In this document: positions 5,216 through 45,638 of the stretch, piece after piece
Layout: the number at the start of each line of letters is the position of its first letter
How positions within the stretch are numbered: the stretch's first letter is position 1
Assembly: GCA_016193315.1 (NCBI GenBank)
Contig: JACPSJ010000001.1
Location: 350,446 to 404,722 of the forward strand
Direction of reading: 5' to 3'
Length of the DNA stretch: 54,277 nt
Origin: Candidatus Kerfeldbacteria bacterium
GTDB taxonomy: Bacteria; Patescibacteriota; Patescibacteriia; SBBC01; CAIJZX01
Position numbers and translations under genes: made by a program
Notes under the pieces: generated by a model
What the model was told of the DNA's origin: nothing
The model's input: the letters and a program-made list of their open reading frames with translations, nothing else
The model's database searches: none

Positions 5216-6607
5216 CTAACCTTGGAACTGGTTGGCGTCGACTCGTTCTTCCCGATTATCAAAACTCGCTTTGCGCTCGATAAATGACAGTTTGATTCTG
5301 CCGGTCGGGCCGTTGCGGTGCTTGGCGATGAAGATTTCCGCCAGGTTCTTTTTAGCATCTTCGAGGTCCGGATCGTATACGGCGGGTCGATAAATAAAAA
5401 GAACGACGTCAGCGTCCTGCTCAATCGAACCAGATTCTCGGAGGTGGGCCAGCTTGGGGATCGGCGGCCGTTCCTGCTCGACCGCGCGCGACAGTTGTGA
5501 CAGAGCCAGGACCGGCACGTTGAGTTCCCGGGCAATCGATTTCAACCCCCGGGTGATTTCAGAAATCTCCTGGGTCCGGTTCTCCGAATTGCGGCTTTCC
5601 ATCAGCTGCAGATAATCAACTACGATCAGGCCTAACGTCTTATGCTCGGACTGGAGGCGGCGGGCTTTAGTCCGAATTTCCATGATGTTGGCGGTGGCCG
5701 AATCGTCGATGTAGATCGGCGCCTCGGCGAGCAGGCCCATGGCGTGGCCAATGCGCTGAAAATCCTCGTCGTCCTTCAATCGCCCGGTCCGCATTTTCCA
5801 CAGGTCAATGTCGGCTTGGGACACCAACAGCCGATCGACCAGTTGCTCTTTGGACATTTCCAGCGAGAATAGGCCGACTGGTAATTTAGTCTTAATGGCC
5901 ACGTTCCGAGCCATGTCCAGCGCCAGACCGGTTTTGCCGACTGATGGCCGAGCCGCCAGCACGATCAAGTCAGACTTTTGCAACCCGCCGAGAATATTGT
6001 CGAGGGCGGCGAAACCGGTCGACACGCCACGCAGCTGGCCGGCCTGATGGTGAAGTTGATCGATCCGTTCAAAGGCCTCGTGGAGGACGTCGCGGATGTT
6101 AATGAAGTTTTGTTTTAGATAACGTTGGGAAACGCTGAACAGGGACTGTTCGGCCTCGTCGAGCAGAGCGGTTACGTCCTCGGCCTCACGGTAGCCCATC
6201 TCAACCATCGACGTGGCGGCGGTAATCAAGCGGCGGAGAGTCGACTTCTTCTGGATGATGGTGGCGTACTGGACGACGTGGGCGGCGGTCGGCACGGCGT
6301 TCGAGAGGGAGACCAGCCAGCTCCGGCCGCCCAGGTTCTCGAGATGCCCCCGCTCGCCGAGGAGATTAGCCAGGGCAATGAGATCGATCGGTTCATGCCG
6401 TTGGTAGAGGCTGAGCATGGCATCAAAAATGAGCCGATGTTTGTCGACGTAGAAATCCTCCGGCTGGATTCGGTCGGCAATCTTGACGATCGCCTCCTGG
6501 TCGATCAGGATCGAGCCGAGGGTGGCCTGTTCGGCTTCGAGCTGGTGGGGCGGCACGCGGAGCGCCGTCTGTTCGAGCAGTTCGGTCGTCATCGTTTTAA
6601 CTGCCAT
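5216..6607 (-). CDS. dnaB: Replicative DNA helicase
   Basis: PPHQLEAEQ, AARPSVGKT, FSLEM, VDYLQL, LSQLSR, LRESGSIEQDAD, KHRNGP. Confidence 0.97.
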   Translation of the reverse strand: MAVKTMTTELLEQTALRVPPHQLEAEQATLGSILIDQEAIVKIADRIQPEDFYVDKHRLIFDAMLSLYQRHEPIDLIALANLLGERGHLENLGGRSWLVSLSNAVPTAAHVVQYATIIQKKSTLRRLITAATSMVEMGYREAEDVTALLDEAEQSLFSVSQRYLKQNFINIRDVLHEAFERIDQLHHQAGQLRGVSTGFAALDNILGGLQKSDLIVLAARPSVGKTGLALDMARNVAIKTKLPVGLFSLEMSKEQLVDRLLVSQADIDLWKMRTGRLKDDEDFQRIGHAMGLLAEAPIYIDDSATANIMEIRTKARRLQSEHKTLGLIVVDYLQLMESRNSENRTQEISEITRGLKSIARELNVPVLALSQLSRAVEQERPPIPKLAHLRESGSIEQDADVVLFIYRPAVYDPDLEDAKKNLAEIFIAKHRNGPTGRIKLSFIERKASFDNREERVDANQFQG

Positions 6608-6725
6608 GTTCTCAGTCTACTGCCATTCTCAGCCGGGAGCAAACGCGATCATGCCCAGCTTTTTCAACGGCTTGTCCCCAAGCCAGCCTTGTGGCCGTGG
6701 CGGTCCTGATTTATACTAGGCCCCT

Positions 6726-7259
6726 ATGATCGTTGGTTTGCCGGCCTCCGAGTTCGTCGTCCTCGACGTCGAGACGACGGGGTTGGAACCGGAGCGAGGC
6801 CACGAGGTGATTGAAGTCGGCGCCCAAAAGTTGCGCGGTCGGGCGGTGATTGGCGAATACGTGCGCCTGGTCAAGCCAAGCAAACCGGTGCCGCCTGAGT
6901 CCTTGGCCGTCCATGGGATTACCGATTCGGAGTTGGAACAAGGTCGAGACCCGGCGGAAGTTTTTCCGGCCTTGGCGCATTTTATCGGCCCCAGCATTAT
7001 CATCGCCCATAACGCCGCTTTCGACTTAGGTTTTGTCAACGCTCATCTCGAACGGCTTGGCTTGCCAATACTCAAGAACCAAGCGATTGATACCCTGGAG
7101 ATTGCGCAGCGGTACCTCATCTTGCCGAGCTACCGCTTGGGCAACGTGGCCGCCTATCTCAAGGTGCCGCAGCCGTCTGCTCACCGAGCGCTGGTCGATG
7201 TGATTACCACCCGGGAAGTGTTTTTTAAGTTGATTGAACGGGCGAAGCAGAAGGTGTAG
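6726..7259 (+). CDS. DEDDh 3'-5' exonuclease (DnaQ/PolC-exo-like)
   Basis: LDVETTG, VHGI, AHNAAFD, HRALVD. Confidence 0.9.
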   Translation: MIVGLPASEFVVLDVETTGLEPERGHEVIEVGAQKLRGRAVIGEYVRLVKPSKPVPPESLAVHGITDSELEQGRDPAEVFPALAHFIGPSIIIAHNAAFDLGFVNAHLERLGLPILKNQAIDTLEIAQRYLILPSYRLGNVAAYLKVPQPSAHRALVDVITTREVFFKLIERAKQKV

Positions 7260-7267
7260 TTGGCGTC

Positions 7268-7296
7268 TTGAAAGATTTGTGCGTCAGTGCTACAAT
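7268..7296 (+). promoter_or_regulatory. Sigma70-type promoter for the tRNA-Lys locus
   Basis: TTGAAA-17bp-TACAAT with extended -10 TG. Confidence 0.65.
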
Positions 7297-7334
7297 GCGC
7301 CTGCTTTTTGTAACCTGCGGGCCGATAGCGAAAT

Positions 7335-7481
7335 GGGTCGCGGCGGCACCCCGAATGGGGTCGCGGCAGAACTGCTTCTGCCGCGGCCGCCGCGACGGGC
7401 GATTCGATGTTTCGAAGGAACCGAATCGCCCAGGCTCGAAGCCACTTGGCTCTCCATAAAACCAATAACGTGCGGCGCGAC
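7335..7481 (+). repeat. Multi-hairpin structured element, copy 1 (family S)
   Basis: 11-bp GTCGCGGCGGC/GCCGCCGCGAC stem enclosing GAAT-loop and CTGC-loop hairpins, then GGGC..GCCCAGG stem; covarying copy on the minus strand at 45394-45578. Confidence 0.8.
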
Positions 7482-7486
7482 CACAC

Positions 7487-7558
7487 GGGCCCATAGCTCA
7501 ACGGTAGAGCATCTGCCTTTTAAGCAGAGGGTTGGAGGTTCGAGTCCTCCTGGGCTCA
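7487..7558 (+). tRNA. tRNA-Lys(TTT)
   Basis: Cloverleaf: GGGCCCA/TGGGCTC acceptor, TCTGC-CTTTTAA-GCAGA anticodon arm, GGAGG-TTCGAGT-CCTCC T arm; CCA not encoded. Confidence 0.95.
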
Positions 7559-7595
7559 TTTGAAATAGGCCGCACGTTAGTGCGGCGAGAATATA

Positions 7596-7687
7596 GTGCC
7601 CAGAGGACGAGAAGGGCGAGCACGGCTGCCGGTGGCAGGCGAGCGCAAGCCCCGGCCCCGCCGGGGCGAGTCCTCCGCGGGTCACCA
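7596..7687 (+). repeat. tRNA 3'-linked hairpin element ending in a degenerate tRNA 3' end plus CCA (family T)
   Basis: GTGCCCAGAGGAC (antisense to the tRNA 3' end)...CTGCCGGTGGCAG...CGAGTCCTCCGCGGGTCACCA. Confidence 0.7.
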
Positions 7688-7866
7688 GCTTTTTTCAACA
7701 CCAAGAAGCGCCGTAGAAAAATTTGCAATTGTCAATGATCGCAGCGGAATCGCCGGCCGGATTTTAGGGGGCGGTCGAGCCCCTTTCAAAATAGTTCACC
7801 AAGTGGGCCGCGAAGCACCACATCCTAATGTACAAATCCCAATACTAATCTCTACAATTCATTCAT

Positions 7867-8385
7867 CTGGCAGAACTTGAAGACAGCGCACCATTCGAGG
7901 ATCCAGCTGAAGCCGGAGCGCGTGAAGGGCTCCACGCCGATCACCCGGGAGCATTTACACCAGACGAGTTACGACGACTGGTCGAGGTCCCCGACACCGT
8001 TGAAGGAAACCCCTCCTACCGGCCCCGGAAACGTTTGCAGAGGATTTGGGAGCTCGAGATTGCAGCGCTGCCCGACGGGCCAGGGAAGGCAGAAATCATG
8101 GATGCCTATGACCAGCGCGCCCAAGAGCTCCTTGCCGCCGAAATCATTAACCTACCGGAAAAAGCAGAAGTCGAGAGTAACCCGGAGTACCAACCGACAG
8201 CCAGGGTAACCGCGATTGCCGAAGCAATCAGTGCCTTTCCATTTGCCCGAACCGAGACGAAGGAGCGAATGTTGGACTTGGTGAACAGCAAAGCTAAAGG
8301 GATGGGTCTGGACTTGTCGGGCGAAGCTCGTCAAGCCGCGGGGCAGTCGACTTCAGCGCTAAGATATGGCATAATTTTTCAGTGA
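7867..8385 (+). CDS. Hypothetical acidic protein; start uncertain (CTG at 7867 or TTG at 8035)
   Basis: Frame is open from 7849 to 8385; stop overlaps the GTG of the next gene. Confidence 0.45.
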   Translation: MAELEDSAPFEDPAEAGAREGLHADHPGAFTPDELRRLVEVPDTVEGNPSYRPRKRLQRIWELEIAALPDGPGKAEIMDAYDQRAQELLAAEIINLPEKAEVESNPEYQPTARVTAIAEAISAFPFARTETKERMLDLVNSKAKGMGLDLSGEARQAAGQSTSALRYGIIFQ

Positions 8386-10976
8386 CCGCCCCGACCCGAA
8401 TCAAAACACAACCCCCGGACAACAATATTTTCTCCCCCTTCACCGCGCTCTCAGTGCGCGATCTTTCATCACGGTTACAGACCTCAATCGAGAGTGGGCT
8501 GTCAGCGAAGGAAGCCGTGGACAGGTTAGTCAAGTTTGGCCCGAACGAAGTCAAAGCGAAAGAAGAAACGGCCGCCCAAATTCTCGTCCGCCAATGGCGG
8601 TCCCCATTTATTGCCCTGCTGGTCGGAGCGGCCGTGGTCTCGCTGGCGCTCGGCGAACGCATCGATGCGGCATTCATTGTTCTGTTTGTCATCATCAACA
8701 CGCTGCTGGGGTTCTATCAAGAATACCGCTCAGCCCAGGCGCTGCGACTACTGAAACAATACTTGAAAACCAATGTTACTGTTCGACGCGACCGCACCGA
8801 GCAGCTGATCGATAGTCGGCAGGTCGTACCGGGGGATATGATCATGCTCAAAGCCGGGGATACTGCGCCAGCTGATGTCCGGTTGGTCGAGGTTGACGAT
8901 CTGACCGTTGATGAATCCACGCTGACCGGTGAATCAGTACCGATCACCAAGCAATCGGGACCGCTAGATCATCCGACATCCGATCTCTTCCAAGCCATCA
9001 ACATCGTCTTTTCCGGCAGCACGATGATCAAGGGACAAGGCCAGGGCGTGGTCGTGGCCACCGGTCGGCAGTCGATCTTCGGCTCGATCAGCAGTTTGGC
9101 CACGGAGACTGAACGGGTCACGGATTTTCAGCAAGGCATTAATGGTTTCAGCCGTTTCATTCTCCGGATGGTGGCCGTGACCTTAGGCCTGATCATCATA
9201 GCCAATACTTTCTTGAAGGGCGGGGCCGGGATTGGGGAGTTCCTGGTTTTTGCCATCGCCCTGGCCGTCAGCGTCATCCCCGAGGCGTTGCCGGTGGTAA
9301 CTACCTTAGCCATGTCGCGCGGGGCCCTGCACTTGGCCCGCCGAAAAGTAGTGGTCAAACGACTGTCGGCGATTGAAGATTTGGGCAGTATTGAAGTCCT
9401 CTGTACTGACAAAACAGGCACAATTACGGAGAACAACTTAACGGTGTCTGAAGTCCGTGGGCGACCACGGAATGAGTGTCTCCAGGCCGCGGCGGTCGGG
9501 AGTAGTGCCGTCGAGCGAACCACCGACTTGCCCAACAGCTCTTTTGACGTCGCTGTCTGGCAGGCGCTTGATGCAACTGGCCAAGCCGAGGTCAATGCCT
9601 GGGCGGTCAAGCACGTCCTGCCGTTCGATCCGTTCCGGCGGCGTACCACCGTGGCCGTGACGAGGGGCGGGCAGTGGCGGATCATTAGTCGGGGTGCACC
9701 GGAAGTAATTCTTGAACATTGTACTGGGCTGACCTGGCCAGCACGCCAAGAGTGGCTGAGCTGGATTGAGGCTGTCGGCCGCCAGGGACGCCGGATTATG
9801 GCGGTGGCCGAGCGATTTTTCTCGACTAACCCTGGACCGTCAGACCTCGAGGATGAGCACGGTTTAAGCCTGGTGGGAATGATCGCTTTTCATGATCCGT
9901 TGAAACCGACGGCCGCCTCAGCCGTCGAACGAGCCAAGTCACTCGGGGTTCAAGTCAAGATTCTGACTGGGGATAGCCCGGAAGTCGCCGGCGCAGTGGC
10001 TCACCAGGTTGGCTTGATAGCCGCGCCGAGTCGGGTGATGACTGGTCAGCAACTTTTTGCCTTACCACCGCCCGAACAGACCGCCACCGTCTTGAGGCAG
10101 CCTGTCTTTGCGCGCGTTACTCCGGAGGACAAACTGCGGATCATCGGCCTGCTCCAGAAGCAGACTCACGTGGGCTTCTTAGGTGAGGGGGTAAACGACG
10201 CCCCCGCGCTGAAAGTCGCCAATGTTTCCATGGTGGTGGCTGGCGCGGCCGACATCGCCCGCGCCAGCGCCGACATCGTCCTTCTTCAGCGCCACCTTCA
10301 GGTGATCATCACCGGTATCGAAGAAGGACGACAGGTGTTCGCTAACACCATCAAATACATCAAAGCCACGCTGCTTTCGAACTTCGGTAATTTCTACTCG
10401 GTGGCCATCGCCTCGCTTCTGATTCCCTATTTGCCGATGCTACCAATCCAAATTCTGCTCGTCAACCTGCTGTCCGACTTCCCGATGATCAGTATTGCCG
10501 CCGACGCGGTCGATCCTAGCGAGTTACGGCGACCCAAGAGCTACCAAATTCGAGAAGTGGCGCTCTTGGCCACCATCCTCGGCTTAGTGAGCACGGTTTT
10601 TGACTTCGTTTTCTTTGGTCTCTTCTCACGCATCTCACCAGCCGCCCTGCAAACCAACTGGTTCATTGGCAGCATCCTCACTGAGCTGGTGGTCATCTAT
10701 TCTATTCGCACCCGCTTGCCATTCTTCCGCGCCAAACGTCCGCCCGCACTTATTCTGTGGTTGACGATCGCGGCGGCCGTGGTCACCATCGCCTTGCCGT
10801 TGACGAAGCTAGGCCAAACGGTCTTTCGTTTTTCCCGGCCAGAGCCGATCTACTTCTTATGGATCGCAATCATCGTCGTCGGCTACTTCTACGTAACCGA
10901 AGTCGTCAAGCACTTCTACTATCGCTATGTGGTAGGCCGGAGCCGCCATCCGGAACTGGCCTGGGCTAGAAGGTAG
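8382..10976 (+). CDS. P-type cation ATPase, MgtA-like (probably Mg2+)
   Basis: TGES, PEALP, DKTGT, FDPFRRR, SNFGN, PMLPIQILL.NL, FQ/LQTNWF..S. Confidence 0.85.
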   Translation: MTAPTRIKTQPPDNNIFSPFTALSVRDLSSRLQTSIESGLSAKEAVDRLVKFGPNEVKAKEETAAQILVRQWRSPFIALLVGAAVVSLALGERIDAAFIVLFVIINTLLGFYQEYRSAQALRLLKQYLKTNVTVRRDRTEQLIDSRQVVPGDMIMLKAGDTAPADVRLVEVDDLTVDESTLTGESVPITKQSGPLDHPTSDLFQAINIVFSGSTMIKGQGQGVVVATGRQSIFGSISSLATETERVTDFQQGINGFSRFILRMVAVTLGLIIIANTFLKGGAGIGEFLVFAIALAVSVIPEALPVVTTLAMSRGALHLARRKVVVKRLSAIEDLGSIEVLCTDKTGTITENNLTVSEVRGRPRNECLQAAAVGSSAVERTTDLPNSSFDVAVWQALDATGQAEVNAWAVKHVLPFDPFRRRTTVAVTRGGQWRIISRGAPEVILEHCTGLTWPARQEWLSWIEAVGRQGRRIMAVAERFFSTNPGPSDLEDEHGLSLVGMIAFHDPLKPTAASAVERAKSLGVQVKILTGDSPEVAGAVAHQVGLIAAPSRVMTGQQLFALPPPEQTATVLRQPVFARVTPEDKLRIIGLLQKQTHVGFLGEGVNDAPALKVANVSMVVAGAADIARASADIVLLQRHLQVIITGIEEGRQVFANTIKYIKATLLSNFGNFYSVAIASLLIPYLPMLPIQILLVNLLSDFPMISIAADAVDPSELRRPKSYQIREVALLATILGLVSTVFDFVFFGLFSRISPAALQTNWFIGSILTELVVIYSIRTRLPFFRAKRPPALILWLTIAAAVVTIALPLTKLGQTVFRFSRPEPIYFLWIAIIVVGYFYVTEVVKHFYYRYVVGRSRHPELAWARR

Positions 10977-44361: not shown

Positions 44362-45366
44362 TCAGTCTGATTCAGATACGGCTGTCTGCTTTTCGATATT
44401 CTTTATCAGCTCGTCAACATCGGCCAGTGTATTGATCCGCACCGCTTGGTTGCGAAACTCACTGGCCCGCGGGAACCCGCTGACGTACTTGGCCAGGTGT
44501 TTGCGGAATTCAATCAGACCTCGTTCGCCTCTCGTTTTCACCACCAGCCGCGCATGATCGATTATGGTCTGTTTGAGGTTACGCCAATCAACTGATTCGT
44601 AACCCCCAGCTTTTAATAACCGTTTGGTTTGTTGAAAAATCCATGGCTGGCCCCAAGCGCCGCGGGCAATGCCAACCCCATCGGCCATAGTTTCCGACAA
44701 CATCTGCGGCACACGCTCAGGCGTAAAAATCCCGCCGTTGGCCAGGACTGGCCCGTGAAAGTGCTTTTTGACCTGACGAATCATGGCCGCGTCGACTTCG
44801 CCGTGATGGCCTTGTTCGTATGACCGGCCATGGACCATGACGGCGGCCACTGGCAGTCCGTGGAGGGCGGCAATGAAATCAACAGCCGTGTGAACGTCGG
44901 CTTGGTTAGCATCCAAAGATTGCCGTTCTTTCCGAATGCTAGTGCGGATTTTCATGGAGACGGGGAGAGTGGTGTTCTCGAGCGCCAATCCAACCAGCCG
45001 CCGGGCGTACTGAGGATCACGAAGGAGTGCCACGCCAGCCCCCTTGGCCACTACCTTTCGCGCTGGGCAGCCGAAGTTGATATCGAGGCCGGCAAAACCC
45101 ATCTGGCCGATGAGTTTAACCGCTTGGACAAAGGCCTCTGGCTCGCGTCCAAAAATCTGGGCTATGACCGGCCGCTCGGAAGGGTTAAACTCCAAACGTT
45201 CCATCGCCCGCCGGGCGCGATGAAAGATCGCCTCAGCCGCAGTGAATTCGGTGTAAACGACATCGGCGCCCCAAGTCTTGGCGATTTGGCGGAAGGCGGT
45301 GTCGGTGACCCCCTCCATGGGGGCTAAAGCAAGTATTGGTTTTTCCAGACTGGACCAGAAGTTCAT
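44362..45366 (-). CDS. dus: tRNA-dihydrouridine synthase
   Basis: LAPMEGVTD.AFR, YTEF, QIFG, DINFGCP, VHGR, ANGG, ARG..G.PW.F, RKH. Confidence 0.95.
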   Translation of the reverse strand: MNFWSSLEKPILALAPMEGVTDTAFRQIAKTWGADVVYTEFTAAEAIFHRARRAMERLEFNPSERPVIAQIFGREPEAFVQAVKLIGQMGFAGLDINFGCPARKVVAKGAGVALLRDPQYARRLVGLALENTTLPVSMKIRTSIRKERQSLDANQADVHTAVDFIAALHGLPVAAVMVHGRSYEQGHHGEVDAAMIRQVKKHFHGPVLANGGIFTPERVPQMLSETMADGVGIARGAWGQPWIFQQTKRLLKAGGYESVDWRNLKQTIIDHARLVVKTRGERGLIEFRKHLAKYVSGFPRASEFRNQAVRINTLADVDELIKNIEKQTAVSESD

Positions 45367-45393
45367 GGCGCTCGGCTGGTCATGTGTCGGGGG

Positions 45394-45578
45394 CCTGGGC
45401 GCCGCCTGCTCCTCCGAAGCACGGGGGCGGCCGTCGCGGCAGTAGGTAAGAATAAAAAATGTTGTTGGCCGCGTTCCTGGGCCTCGCCGTCCCGACTACG
45501 GGACAGGGCTCGGCCCGTCGCGGCGGGACGAAAGCAAAGCAGTTTGCTTTCTTTGCCTTCGGCAACCCGCCGCGACCC
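45394..45578 (-). repeat. Multi-hairpin structured element, copy 2 (family S), with a repeated GCGAC..GCCCAGG half-unit
   Basis: Minus strand: GGGTCGCGGCGGG-TTGCC GAA GGCAA-GAAAGCAAA CTGC TTTGCTTTC-CCCGCCGCGAC-GGGC..GCCCAGG. Confidence 0.8.
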
Positions 45579-45638
45579 TGCGATCGGAGCTAAGGCCAGT
45601 ATCGGCTTCTTCAGTGGTAGCCTAAAGTTGGTGGGCAT
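45576..45638 (-). pseudogene. Diverged 5' remnant of a dus gene
   Basis: MPTNFRLPLKKPILALAPIAG versus the intact MNFWSSLEKPILALAPMEG. Confidence 0.75.

What the first reader, a model, noticed from the sequence alone, without database searches (positions are those of the whole stretch)
7335..7481. Family S: covarying junction element shared by the tRNA-Lys leader and the dus leader 38 kb away
Seen: both copies start GGGTCGCGGCGG and form an 11-bp stem whose inner pair switches C-G to G-C. The stem encloses a GAA(T)-loop hairpin (ACCCC/GGGGT vs TTGCC/GGCAA) and a CTGC-loop hairpin (GCGGCAGAA/TTCTGCCGC vs GAAAGCAAA/TTTGCTTTC). Next come GGGC..GCCCAGG, an AT-rich spacer and, 43-47 nt later, a repeat of GCGAC that offers an alternative partner for the 5' strand. 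Both copies are in sense orientation to the downstream gene. Stems that change while loops stay fixed indicate selection on structure. Inference: an unannotated structured RNA (switch or ribozyme) or an ssDNA recognition site. I do not recognise it as a known family.
Basis: partly seen in the sequence, partly recalled or inferred. Interest (0 to 1): 0.8.

Follow-up and report, generated by a model that had tools for sequence, protein, structure and literature searches.

The report
Structured insertion element at tRNA genes
A tightly folded stretch of about 100 bases, present in roughly 18 copies in this small groundwater bacterium, sits inside leftover partial copies of tRNA genes and a few protein genes, so it behaves like an undescribed insertion element rather than a switch for two particular genes.

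Summary
Both window copies (7335-7437 +, 45473-45578 -) have the described fold, and no Rfam family matches.

It is not a two-copy leader motif. A covariance model finds 17-19 copies in this 1.15-Mb genome. It also finds copies in 14 of 21 genomes of the order and 36 of 151 of the class. An even sample of the phylum gave none in 150 other genomes.

Covariation is strong: 35 of 40 pairs carry double changes, and 0 of 500 shuffles reach the observed score. The fold is strand-specific, with 175 G.A mismatches against 3 C.T.

The key new fact is context. 45 of 59 copies lie within 300 nt of a tRNA gene, 41 on the same strand. They are inserted cleanly at a GG(T) site, mostly the D-loop G18G19, inside a partial duplicate of the neighbouring gene. 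Copy A follows a 16-nt copy of the tRNA-Lys 5' end. Copy B follows a copy of dus codons 8-18.

The 'GCGAC repeat' is not a family feature. At B it belongs to a truncated tandem copy.

Best reading (about 0.5): an undescribed, non-autonomous structured insertion element that is co-transcribed with its host gene. No mobilising enzyme was found, and no RNA data exist.

The parts
7268..7296 (+). Sigma-70-like promoter (TTGAAA, 17 nt, TACAAT with TG extension) upstream of copy A. No promoter-like site lies between the element and tRNA-Lys.
   Evidence: 10 of 12 matches. That the element is transcribed as part of the tRNA-Lys precursor is inferred from this.
7319..7334 (+). 16-nt partial copy of the 5' end of tRNA-Lys (acceptor 5' strand, TAGC and the D-loop start). 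It ends where the element's GGG stands in place of D-loop G18G19.
   Evidence: matches tRNA positions 1-18. (11 of 11 core alignment with one mismatch; 26 of 1000 shuffles score as well, so weak on its own). The same layout recurs in 21 of 41 copies.
7335..7437 (+). Element copy A. Parts: GG; outer stem P1 7337-7347 with 7386-7396; hairpin hp1 7348-7361; hairpin hp2 7363-7384 (apex AACTGCTT); hairpin P4 7397-7431 (AT bulge, GAA loop); tail 7432-7437.
   Evidence: Covariance model R2 109.3 bits, E 4e-19. Fold. Coordinates read.
7438..7486 (+). Spacer between copy A and tRNA-Lys. 7467-7476 is complementary to 7569-7578 downstream of the tRNA (a leader/trailer stem).
   Evidence: Read. Similar leader/trailer complementarity is seen at other tRNA genes.
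7487..7558 (+). Intact tRNA-Lys(UUU) gene with no encoded CCA. It is the host gene of copy A.
   Evidence: (75 bits).
45473..45578 (-). Element copy B, with the same architecture. Its P4 is of the 'CTGTCCCGTA' subtype, also seen in relatives.
   Evidence: R2 99 bits, E 4e-17. Fold.
45579..45614 (-). Decayed duplicate of dus codons about 8-18. It reads ...KKPILALAPIA against KPILALAPMEG in Dus and ends exactly at the element's 5' GGG.
   Evidence: score 25; 2 of 1000 shuffles reach it; 8 identical residues in frame. The same layout occurs twice in relative G003 (L005).
45391..45437 (-). 5'-truncated second element copy in tandem (P1 3' strand, P4 and CCCAGG tail). It is the source of the 'GCGAC repeat' at B.
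   Evidence: 13.8 bits, E 0.005, filters off, 401-nt search.
44362..45366 (-). Intact dus gene (tRNA-dihydrouridine synthase). It is the host gene of copy B. The site GGGGTCAC in codons 18-20 corresponds to the junction.
   Evidence: PF01207, 216.7 bits.

Best explanation
The two copies belong to an undescribed family of 82-126-nt elements, called E here, that fold in a strand-specific way.

The fold is: GG; an outer stem P1, which in most members contains a tandem G.A/A.G; an optional hairpin hp1; a hairpin hp2 with an invariant AACUGCUU apex; a second long hairpin P4 abutting P1 without a linker; and a CCNGG tail.

E is an insertion element, not a gene-specific regulator. It is found inserted cleanly at GG(T) sites, above all the D-loop G18G19 of tRNA sequences. 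It survives only inside redundant partial duplicates that lie next to an intact copy of the same gene.

E is therefore carried in the precursor transcript. At copy A that means the roughly 185-nt leader of tRNA-Lys, driven by the promoter at 7268-7296. It is discarded when the tRNA is matured.

Selection keeps the sense-strand fold. The likeliest reason is that the folded single strand (RNA or ssDNA) is what an unidentified trans-acting machinery recognises for insertion or removal.

Shown: the family, the fold, the covariation, the strand asymmetry, the tRNA linkage, the junction positions, the flanking duplicates and the patchy distribution.

Inferred: mobility, co-transcription and removal by tRNA processing, and the reason for the structural constraint.
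For: Family and fold:
- 59 copies from 17 genomes were aligned.
- 89% of cells are paired against 65.6% in shuffles. 35 of 40 pairs have double changes. The covariation score is 0.503 against 0.145 (0 of 500 shuffles) and 0.04-0.10 for slid partners.
- An independent MAFFT and RNAalifold run on 25 of the 59 copies recovers the same helices, with 23 of 31 pairs compensatory.
- Strand asymmetry: 175 G.A/A.G against 3 C.T/T.C, and 60 G.U against 37 A.C.

Insertion-like context:
- 45 of 59 copies have a tRNA gene within 300 nt, 41 on the same strand.
- For the 41 copies with a same-strand tRNA neighbour, the left flank matches that tRNA up to position 18-19 in 21 cases. It ends at 35-38 in 6 (4 solid, all tRNA-Pro GGG), at 42-49 in 6, at 53-56 in 5, and elsewhere in 3.
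- The right flank resumes 1-3 nt later, at 20-21 in 10-11 D-loop cases.
- Protein-gene cases show the same duplicate-element-duplicate layout: dus, msrA in three tandem units, and one copy antisense at a gene's 3' end.

Turnover and patchiness:
- Hits occur in 14 of 21 genomes of the order (1-17 copies), 36 of 151 of the class, and only the window's own genome among 151 in the phylum sample.
- Zero to 8 copies occur within one genus.
- Two congeneric genomes share no occupied locus, yet hold 87%-identical copies at different loci.
- Partial tRNA-Pro copies without the element exist at the orthologous place in three relatives.

The two JGI metagenome contigs that hold the motif are also true matches next to tRNA genes.
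Against: No mobilising enzyme tracks the element. RVT_1 is present in 49 of 101 genomes and Y1_Tnp in 57 of 101. Several high-quality genomes that have the element lack both (G002, G003, G007, G008). No TnpB-type hit was found in the own genome.

There are no terminal inverted repeats and no clear short target duplication.

Copies within a genome are as diverged as copies between genomes (55% against 52% identity). Only 18 of 59 have their nearest relative in the same genome. So there is no sign of recent bursts.

Copy A has all 40 pairs intact although its 16-nt tRNA-derived flank differs at 4 positions from the tRNA. This suggests selection on copies in place, which favours a host-level function.

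No occupied and empty pair of orthologous sites could be aligned, so insertion is inferred, not observed.

The partial tRNA duplicates also exist without the element, so the element did not necessarily create them.
Confidence: 0.5

Rival explanations
1. Host-useful small RNA module. E is a stable structured RNA released from tRNA-operon transcripts by the tRNA end-processing enzymes, and it acts in trans (for example as a protein-binding RNA). Its paralogues spread by local duplication together with tRNA pieces.
For: Paralogues are old and diverged but their structures are intact. 17 copies are retained in a 1.15-Mb genome. Sense orientation matches the tRNA in 41 of 45 tRNA-linked copies. The loops are invariant and the tandem G.A is conserved, as at protein-binding sites. 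Copy A sits between a strong promoter and an essential tRNA.
Against: It is dispensable and patchy: 7 of 21 genomes of the order and 115 of 151 of the class show none, and counts range from 0 to 8 within one genus. One copy is antisense to its host gene. Clean insertion into gene fragments, including coding sequence, is not expected of an RNA gene. No RNA data are available.
Confidence: 0.25
2. Mobile element that acts at the RNA level, like an intron or ribozyme. E RNA joins itself to exposed GGU in tRNA loops (or is spliced from them). The chimeric RNAs are then copied back into DNA by a reverse transcriptase.
For: Insertion sites are the single-stranded loops of folded tRNA (D, anticodon, variable, T region). 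Partial tRNA copies end in CCA although the neighbouring gene encodes none. In the own genome these are the Arg-TCG and Pro-UGG copies with E, the Lys copy at 7667-7687, and the Thr-CGT, Pro-CGG and Met copies without E. The own genome has two RVT_1 ORFs.
Against: Reverse transcriptase is lacking in many genomes that have E. Some duplicates extend into leader or trailer DNA beyond the mature tRNA ends (L004, L013, L031; L242). One copy is antisense to its host gene. There is no match to any ribozyme family in Rfam, and there are few conserved unpaired nucleotides. At 100 nt it is far below known self-splicing introns (recalled).
Confidence: 0.1
3. Cis-regulatory switch or attenuator specific to the tRNA-Lys and dus leaders.
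For: Both window copies lie in sense orientation in 5' leaders. The folds are strong.
Against: About 18 copies occur in many contexts, including downstream of tRNAs and antisense to a gene. The alternative-pairing segment is not conserved. The 'dus leader' context is a duplicated piece of the dus coding sequence.
Confidence: 0.04
4. Scar of integrative elements. E is the conserved att-proximal end of phage- or plasmid-like elements that integrated into tRNA genes and were later deleted.
For: Partial tRNA 3' copies that start in the anticodon loop lie downstream of many tRNA genes. This is the classical footprint of tRNA-targeted integrases (recalled). The genome has two tyrosine recombinases, one next to a tRNA-Ser gene.
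Against: E has tRNA sequence on both sides, 1-3 nt apart, not at one border of a repeat. No true copy was found among the 80 fetched viral loci, out of at least 120 loose-pattern matches in a truncated scan, and the strict motif found none in IMG/VR. Strong covariation is not expected of a decaying scar.
Confidence: 0.06

Closest known systems
REP / REPIN sequences with RAYT transposases (recalled from memory)
   Same: Short, GC-rich, hairpin-forming, multi-copy and intergenic. They are transcribed with neighbouring genes and persist for long periods in a lineage.
   Different: No link to a Y1/RAYT gene: 57 of 101 genomes have Y1_Tnp, but at least seven genomes that have E lack it. Copies are highly diverged with compensatory changes rather than near-identical. 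The fold is a junction plus a second hairpin. Insertion is into tRNA loops with flanking partial gene duplicates.
Structured MITE-like repeats of bacteria (bcr1 of the Bacillus cereus group, ERIC, Correia elements, Rickettsia palindromic elements; all recalled from memory)
   Same: Non-autonomous 100-150-nt repeats that are co-transcribed. Some have a conserved RNA fold and compensatory changes. Rickettsia palindromic elements insert inside genes.
   Different: No terminal inverted repeats and no fixed short target duplication were seen. The target is GG(T) in tRNA loops. Intragenomic identity is very low (55%).
Hairpin elements of mitochondrial genomes: double-hairpin elements, repetitive hairpin-forming elements, yeast GC clusters (PMC2800124 and PMC4478555 seen only as search listing and abstract start; the rest recalled)
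   Same: Small mobile elements defined by a two-hairpin fold rather than by sequence. They invade intergenic regions and RNA genes of compact genomes.
   Different: Those are organellar. This is a free-standing bacterial lineage. No tRNA-loop targeting or partial host-gene duplication is described for them, as far as I recall.
Integron attC sites (recalled from memory)
   Same: The structure, not the sequence, is conserved. The folded single strand is the substrate. The asymmetry is strand-specific and non-Watson-Crick features are essential.
   Different: There is no integron integrase context and no cassette array. E has two hairpin domains and invariant loops.
Archaeal tRNA introns at non-canonical positions (PMC4090602 and bioRxiv 10.64898/2026.10.13.758758 seen as listing and abstract start only)
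   Same: Intervening sequences in D-loop, anticodon-loop, variable and T regions of tRNA genes, with repeated gains.
   Different: No splicing endonuclease (PF01974) or RtcB ligase was found in this genome. The interrupted tRNA copies are mostly partial, and an intact copy always lies beside them. No bulge-helix-bulge motif was looked for.

Membership tests
Any Rfam 15 family | Covariance-model score at or above the family's gathering score | tested here: not met
   Whole window at gathering score: only two tRNAs. Both loci at E up to 10: best overlapping hits are mir-3960 at 19.5 bits (E 3.2), a flavivirus xrRNA at 14.1 bits and ybhL at 15.5 bits (E 5.9), all far below gathering.
Self-cleaving ribozymes (hammerhead, HDV-like, twister, twister-sister, pistol, hatchet, hairpin) | Match to the family model or its conserved catalytic core | tested here: not met
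   No such family appears among hits at E up to 10. The element has nested helices only and few conserved unpaired bases. Catalysis itself is not testable here.
REP/REPIN-RAYT system | Co-occurrence with a RAYT (Y1 transposase) gene, usually flanked by the repeats | tested here: not met
   Y1_Tnp is in 57 of 101 genomes and does not track E. G002, G003, G004, G007, G008, G009 and G025 have E but no Y1 hit. No E match lies near the own genome's Y1-like ORF at C1:13293-13574.
IS200/IS605-derived PATE with TnpB guide RNA | TnpB/IscB or TnpA in the genome; a fixed 4-5-nt target motif 5' of the left end | tested here: not met
   There is no PF07282 hit in the own genome. The four bases 5' of the element vary.
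Classical MITE | Terminal inverted repeats and a short target-site duplication of fixed length | tested here: not met
   The termini, GGGTCG... and ...CCNGG(A), are not inverted repeats. The flanks show either clean insertion or long partial gene duplicates of variable length, 16 to about 70 nt. A 2-nt GG duplication cannot be excluded.
Retroelement-dependent repeat (SINE-like, retron or DGR-linked) | Co-occurrence with a reverse transcriptase | tested here: not met
   RVT_1 is in 49 of 101 genomes. G002, G003, G005, G007, G008 and G009 have E but no RVT_1 hit. The own genome has two RVT_1 ORFs.
Archaeal-type (bulge-helix-bulge) tRNA intron | Splicing endonuclease and ligase present; the exons rejoin to give a functional tRNA | tested here: not met
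   PF01974 and PF01139 were not found in the own genome, which is 96% complete. Most interrupted copies lack part of the tRNA.
Riboswitch or T-box-like leader | Consistent position in 5' leaders of functionally related genes, with a conserved expression platform | tested here: not met
   Copies lie upstream or downstream of tRNAs, in tandem arrays, and once antisense to a gene. The alternative-pairing segment is not conserved.
Bacterial Y RNA (Rsr/Ro-associated) | A TROVE-domain Ro protein encoded in the genome | tested here: not met
   There is no PF05731 hit in the own genome.
Structured RNA (or ssDNA) family in general | Compensatory base changes that preserve the helices across diverged members | tested here: met
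   Caveats: alignment A3 is fitted to the model, related genomes are not independent, and R-scape was not available.

The most novel reading that the evidence does not exclude
E is a new class of small mobile RNA. Under this reading, a roughly 100-nt intron-like or ribozyme-like element inserts at the RNA level into exposed GGU of tRNA loops and is fixed in the genome through reverse transcription. This would also explain the many partial tRNA copies that end in CCA although the neighbouring gene encodes none. If so, this bacterial class holds an RNA-based parasite of tRNAs with no known counterpart.
Probability: 0.1. Interest if true: 0.9.

Novelty: new variant of a known kind. Interest (0 to 1): 0.62.

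Why it matters
It adds a well-supported structured family to a little-studied, small-genome bacterial class. The family has 59 aligned members, heavy covariation and no Rfam match.

It also shows an unusual genomic behaviour: clean insertion into the loops of tRNA sequences, always beside an intact copy of the same gene. That pattern is not described for REP, MITE or intron families that I know of.

The element inflates tRNA precursors. Copy A makes a leader of about 185 nt on an essential single-copy tRNA. It marks a lineage in which about a quarter of tRNA genes are shadowed by partial, often CCA-ending, copies.

If the mobilising mechanism is found, it could be a new recombination or RNA-insertion chemistry. 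If instead the RNA has a host function, it is a new multi-paralogue ncRNA. Practically, these elements mislead tRNA predictors. ARAGORN calls a false second tRNA-Asn across one copy.

Tried and rejected
**Rfam.** At gathering score and at E up to 10: nothing relevant.

**Exact-pattern search in the own genome.** It finds only the two window copies. This misled at first; the covariance model shows the rest.

**Alternative pairing with a downstream GCGAC.** Not conserved.

**Mobilising or partner enzymes.**
- RVT_1 and Y1_Tnp are present in many genomes but uncorrelated with the element.
- TnpB-type, splicing endonuclease, RtcB and TROVE/Ro were not found in the own genome, which is 96% complete.

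**Empty-site comparison.**
- The locus of copy A is not syntenic in the 11 family relatives.
- The tRNA-Pro locus of two congeneric genomes loses homology just downstream of the tRNA.
- So no occupied/empty pair could be aligned.

**Viral contigs.** A loose motif gave at least 120 chance matches (the scan was truncated). None of the 80 fetched loci is a true match. The strict motif gave 0.

**JGI metagenome scan.** The strict motif gave 2 contigs, both true matches.

**Expression.** No RNA holder is listed for the window stretch; the four DNA runs come from one groundwater study.

**Laying the contigs of those runs on 5500-9500.** No variant of copy A appears. One joint, 7548 to 7773, has only 29 letters on its shorter side, at the repeated tRNA-Lys 3' sequence. 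I take it as an assembly effect of that repeat.

**Replication-strand test.** GC skew on contig C1 is weak. The element's orientation does not follow it.

**Heuristic search for further minimal copies in the own genome.** Nothing convincing.

**The search for related loci with Dus.** Only 4 loci came back, with uninformative record titles.

**Taxon.** It is not named by any tool. Genome size, GC content and habitat resemble the Peribacteria described in PMC4736985 (passages read), but that is only a lead.

**Literature.** Searches found no description of such an element. Supplementary files were not consulted.

Full report
**1. The observation**

Reading both loci confirms every described part:
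- an 11-bp outer stem (P1) whose innermost pair is C-G in copy A and G-C in copy B;
- an enclosed 5-bp hairpin (hp1) with a GAAT or GAA loop;
- a 9-bp hairpin (hp2) with a CTGC loop;
- a hairpin GGGC...GCCC (P4) starting at the very next base, followed by AGG.

Several P4 pairs also differ compensatorily between A and B. Both stretches fold much better than dinucleotide shuffles, with z of -5.8 and -3.9 and 0 of 200 shuffles as good. Copy A lies 49 nt upstream of tRNA-Lys(UUU). Copy B lies upstream of a Dus protein (PF01207, 216.7 bits). Rfam has nothing at gathering score or at E up to 10.

**2. It is a family, not a pair**

An exact-pattern search finds only these two copies. A covariance model built from them (R1) finds 16 matches in the same 1.15-Mb genome and matches in 18 of 101 related genomes.

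I aligned 59 copies from 17 genomes and rebuilt the model (R2). R2 finds:
- 17 copies in the own genome and copies in 14 of 21 genomes of the order, with 1-17 copies each;
- copies in 36 of 151 genomes sampled from the class, with up to 11 copies;
- only the window's own genome among 151 sampled evenly from the phylum (stricter filters apply to large searches).

Adding a short copy at C1:190046 (R1 only) and the truncated copy beside B gives about 19 in this genome. The window itself holds only A, B and that remnant.

**3. The fold is under selection and is strand-specific**

On the 59-sequence alignment, 89% of cells are paired against 65.6% after shuffling. 35 of 40 pairs show changes on both sides. 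The covariation score is 0.503 against 0.145 (0 of 500 shuffles) and 0.04-0.10 when partners are slid.

That alignment is fitted to the model. I therefore also ran MAFFT plus RNAalifold on 25 of the 59 copies, chosen to include hp1. It recovers P1, hp1, hp2 and P4, with 23 of 31 pairs compensatory.

Conserved primary sequence is limited to 5' GGGU, the hp2 apex AACUGCUU, ACGGG at the P1/P4 joint, a UG in the P4 bulge, and CCNGG.

In 41-42 of 59 members, two adjacent P1 positions are G.A and A.G. The two window copies are unusual in having Watson-Crick pairs there. Across all stems there are 175 G.A/A.G against 3 C.T/T.C, and 60 G.U against 37 A.C. So the strand shown, not its complement, is the one that folds. 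hp1 is optional, and a subfamily replaces it with AA.

**4. Context: partial duplicates of the neighbouring gene**

45 of 59 copies have an ARAGORN tRNA within 300 nt, 41 on the same strand. tRNA neighbourhoods make up only a few percent of a 1-Mb genome.

For the 41 copies with a same-strand tRNA neighbour, I aligned the flanks to that tRNA. The left flank, read up to the element's first GGG, ends at:

| tRNA position | Region | Copies |
|---|---|---|
| 18-19 | D-loop GG | 21 |
| 35-38 | anticodon loop (the 4 solid cases are all tRNA-Pro GGG) | 6 |
| 42-49 | variable loop | 6 |
| 53-56 | variable arm or T region | 5 |
| elsewhere | | 3 |

Where the right flank is recognisable, it resumes 1-3 nt further on: at 20-21 in 10-11 D-loop cases, and at 39-40, 47-50 and 57-59 in the others. 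The element is therefore cleanly embedded in a tRNA sequence at a GG(T) site.

That tRNA sequence is a partial, sometimes complete, extra copy. An intact gene for the same tRNA lies 14-74 nt downstream or 15-67 nt upstream.

Copy A fits this. 7319-7334 repeats tRNA-Lys positions 1-16 with four differences, and the element's GG stands for G18G19.

Copy B shows the same at a protein gene. The 36 nt before it are a decayed copy of dus codons 8-18, with KPILALAP identical and 2 of 1000 shuffles scoring as well. The copy ends where dus itself reads GGGGTCAC. Relative G003 has two tandem units of the same kind at its dus.

At msrA, three tandem units precede the intact gene. Each consists of about 20 nt of leader, 45 nt of 5' coding sequence and the element. 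At C1:817502 the element is flanked on both sides by the last 66 nt or so of a gene on the opposite strand, so here it is antisense to its host.

**5. The 'GCGAC repeat'**

The last five bases of P1 recur within 90 nt downstream in 9 of 58 copies, against 5.2 expected. At B the recurrence is the P1 3' strand of a 5'-truncated tandem copy at 45391-45437. At A it lies in a leader segment (7467-7476) that pairs with the tRNA trailer (7569-7578). The proposed switch is therefore not supported.

**6. Mobile or functional?**

For an insertion element:
- Distribution is patchy, with 0-8 copies within one genus.
- Two congeneric genomes, G006 and G008, share no occupied locus. Yet they hold copies that are 87% identical at different loci.
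- The same tRNA-Ile D-loop site is occupied with the intact gene on opposite sides in different genera.
- Partial tRNA-Pro copies without the element lie at the orthologous place in G005, G015 and G017.

Against a conventional one:
- There are no inverted termini.
- No enzyme tracks it. RT is in 49 of 101 genomes and Y1 transposase in 57 of 101, and both are missing from several complete genomes that have the element. TnpB, splicing endonuclease, RtcB and Ro were not found in the own genome.
- No true copy was found on the viral contigs examined.
- Copies within a genome are no more alike (55%) than copies between genomes (52%).

The copies are thus old lineages whose stems stay intact while adjacent tRNA debris decays differently in each genome. 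This points to selection on the copies where they sit. I therefore keep a host-function reading at about 0.25 and the insertion-element reading at about 0.5. The two are not exclusive.

**7. How copy A most likely behaves (inferred)**

The only promoter-like site is at 7268-7296. Transcription would give, in order, the 5' tRNA fragment, the element, the spacer and tRNA-Lys. RNase P RNA is present in the genome. It would cut at tRNA +1 and release the element-bearing leader. No RNA data exist to test this.

**8. A wider oddity**

In this genome at least 9 further tRNA genes are followed, 20-140 nt downstream, by a cognate partial copy without the element. These copies run from the anticodon loop or T arm to the acceptor end, and some have compensated stems.

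Only 22 of 48 tRNA genes encode CCA by my script. Yet six partial copies end in CCA where the neighbouring gene does not:
- Arg-TCG and Pro-UGG, which carry the element;
- Lys, at 7667-7687;
- Thr-CGT, Pro-CGG and Met, which lack the element.

Two copies do not: Asn and Arg-TCT. This fits either an RNA-derived origin or functional tRNA-like minihelices. It is the main support for the bolder RNA-level reading. Against that reading, some duplicates extend into leader or trailer DNA.

**9. Comparison and verdict**

The element works most like the structured, non-autonomous repeats of compact genomes: REP/REPIN, bcr1, ERIC or Correia-type repeats, and mitochondrial double-hairpin elements. In being defined by a single-strand fold, it resembles integron attC sites. 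It fails the defining tests of each of these that could be run (see Membership tests). Its positions in tRNA loops recall archaeal non-canonical tRNA introns, but the splicing enzymes are absent.

I file it as a new variant of a known kind. It is a real, well-supported structured family with an unusual and unexplained relation to tRNA genes.

Noticed in passing
window 7580-7690 (+); also G000 C1:161177-161217 and C1:204875-204921: A second GC-rich structured insert lies downstream of tRNA-Lys. It is embedded in a tRNA-Lys-like T-loop and acceptor copy that ends in CCA (7667-7687; 1 of 1000 shuffles aligns as well). Two related pieces occur elsewhere in the genome (blastn 81-83% over 41-48 nt). 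It may be a second family of tRNA-embedded inserts.
   Followed up: partly
G000 genome-wide, e.g. C1:561733-561760, C1:673427-673454, C4:30727-30754, C5:85417-85444: At least 9 tRNA genes are followed 20-140 nt downstream by a cognate partial copy without the element (anticodon loop or T arm to the acceptor end). Most end in CCA even where the gene encodes none, and some have compensated stems. In the Pro-CGG, Ile and Met cases a short 5' strand could close a minihelix.
   Followed up: partly
window 7467-7476 with 7569-7578; G000 tRNA-Phe, Asn, Arg-GCG, Pro-UGG, Met loci: tRNA genes in this genome are flanked by leader and trailer segments complementary to each other over 9-13 nt. These extend the acceptor stem in the precursor.
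   Followed up: no
L048 (G004:C1:54260-55352), about 30 nt downstream of the element: A minimal version of about 45 nt lies in the T-arm region of the same interrupted tRNA-Ala copy. It has the outer stem with tandem G.A closed by a GAA loop, then a short second hairpin and CCGG. This suggests hp1 and hp2 are dispensable (read).
   Followed up: partly
G000 C5:12637-13086 (-), C1:1246-1683 (-), C1:13293-13574 (-): There are two RVT_1 ORFs (355 and 332 aa; 50.4 and 39.3 bits) and one Y1-transposase-like ORF (182 aa; 42 bits) in a 1.15-Mb genome. Their type (DGR, retron, RAYT) was not determined.
   Followed up: partly
G000 C4:64359-64428 (-): ARAGORN calls a second tRNA-Asn here. It is really the tail of the element plus a tRNA-Asn copy. 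That copy has a different, compensated anticodon stem and a near-identical T arm, and the element sits in its D-loop.
   Followed up: yes
window 7548 to 7773: In all four groundwater runs one contig joins 7548 to 7773, skipping 224 nt, at about the depth of the genome. It has only 29 letters on the shorter side. This is probably an assembly effect of the repeated tRNA-Lys 3' sequence, but a deletion allele is not excluded.
   Followed up: no
G000 C1:145700-145833: The tRNA-Cys/tRNA-Gly spacer carries the element in three relatives and one metagenome contig. In this genome it holds a different GC-rich insert closed by a 13-nt inverted repeat, with a T-loop-like piece.
   Followed up: no
G000 C1:68250-68323: A tRNA-Ile with anticodon TAT is encoded, and only two tRNA genes with anticodon CAT are present.
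   Followed up: no
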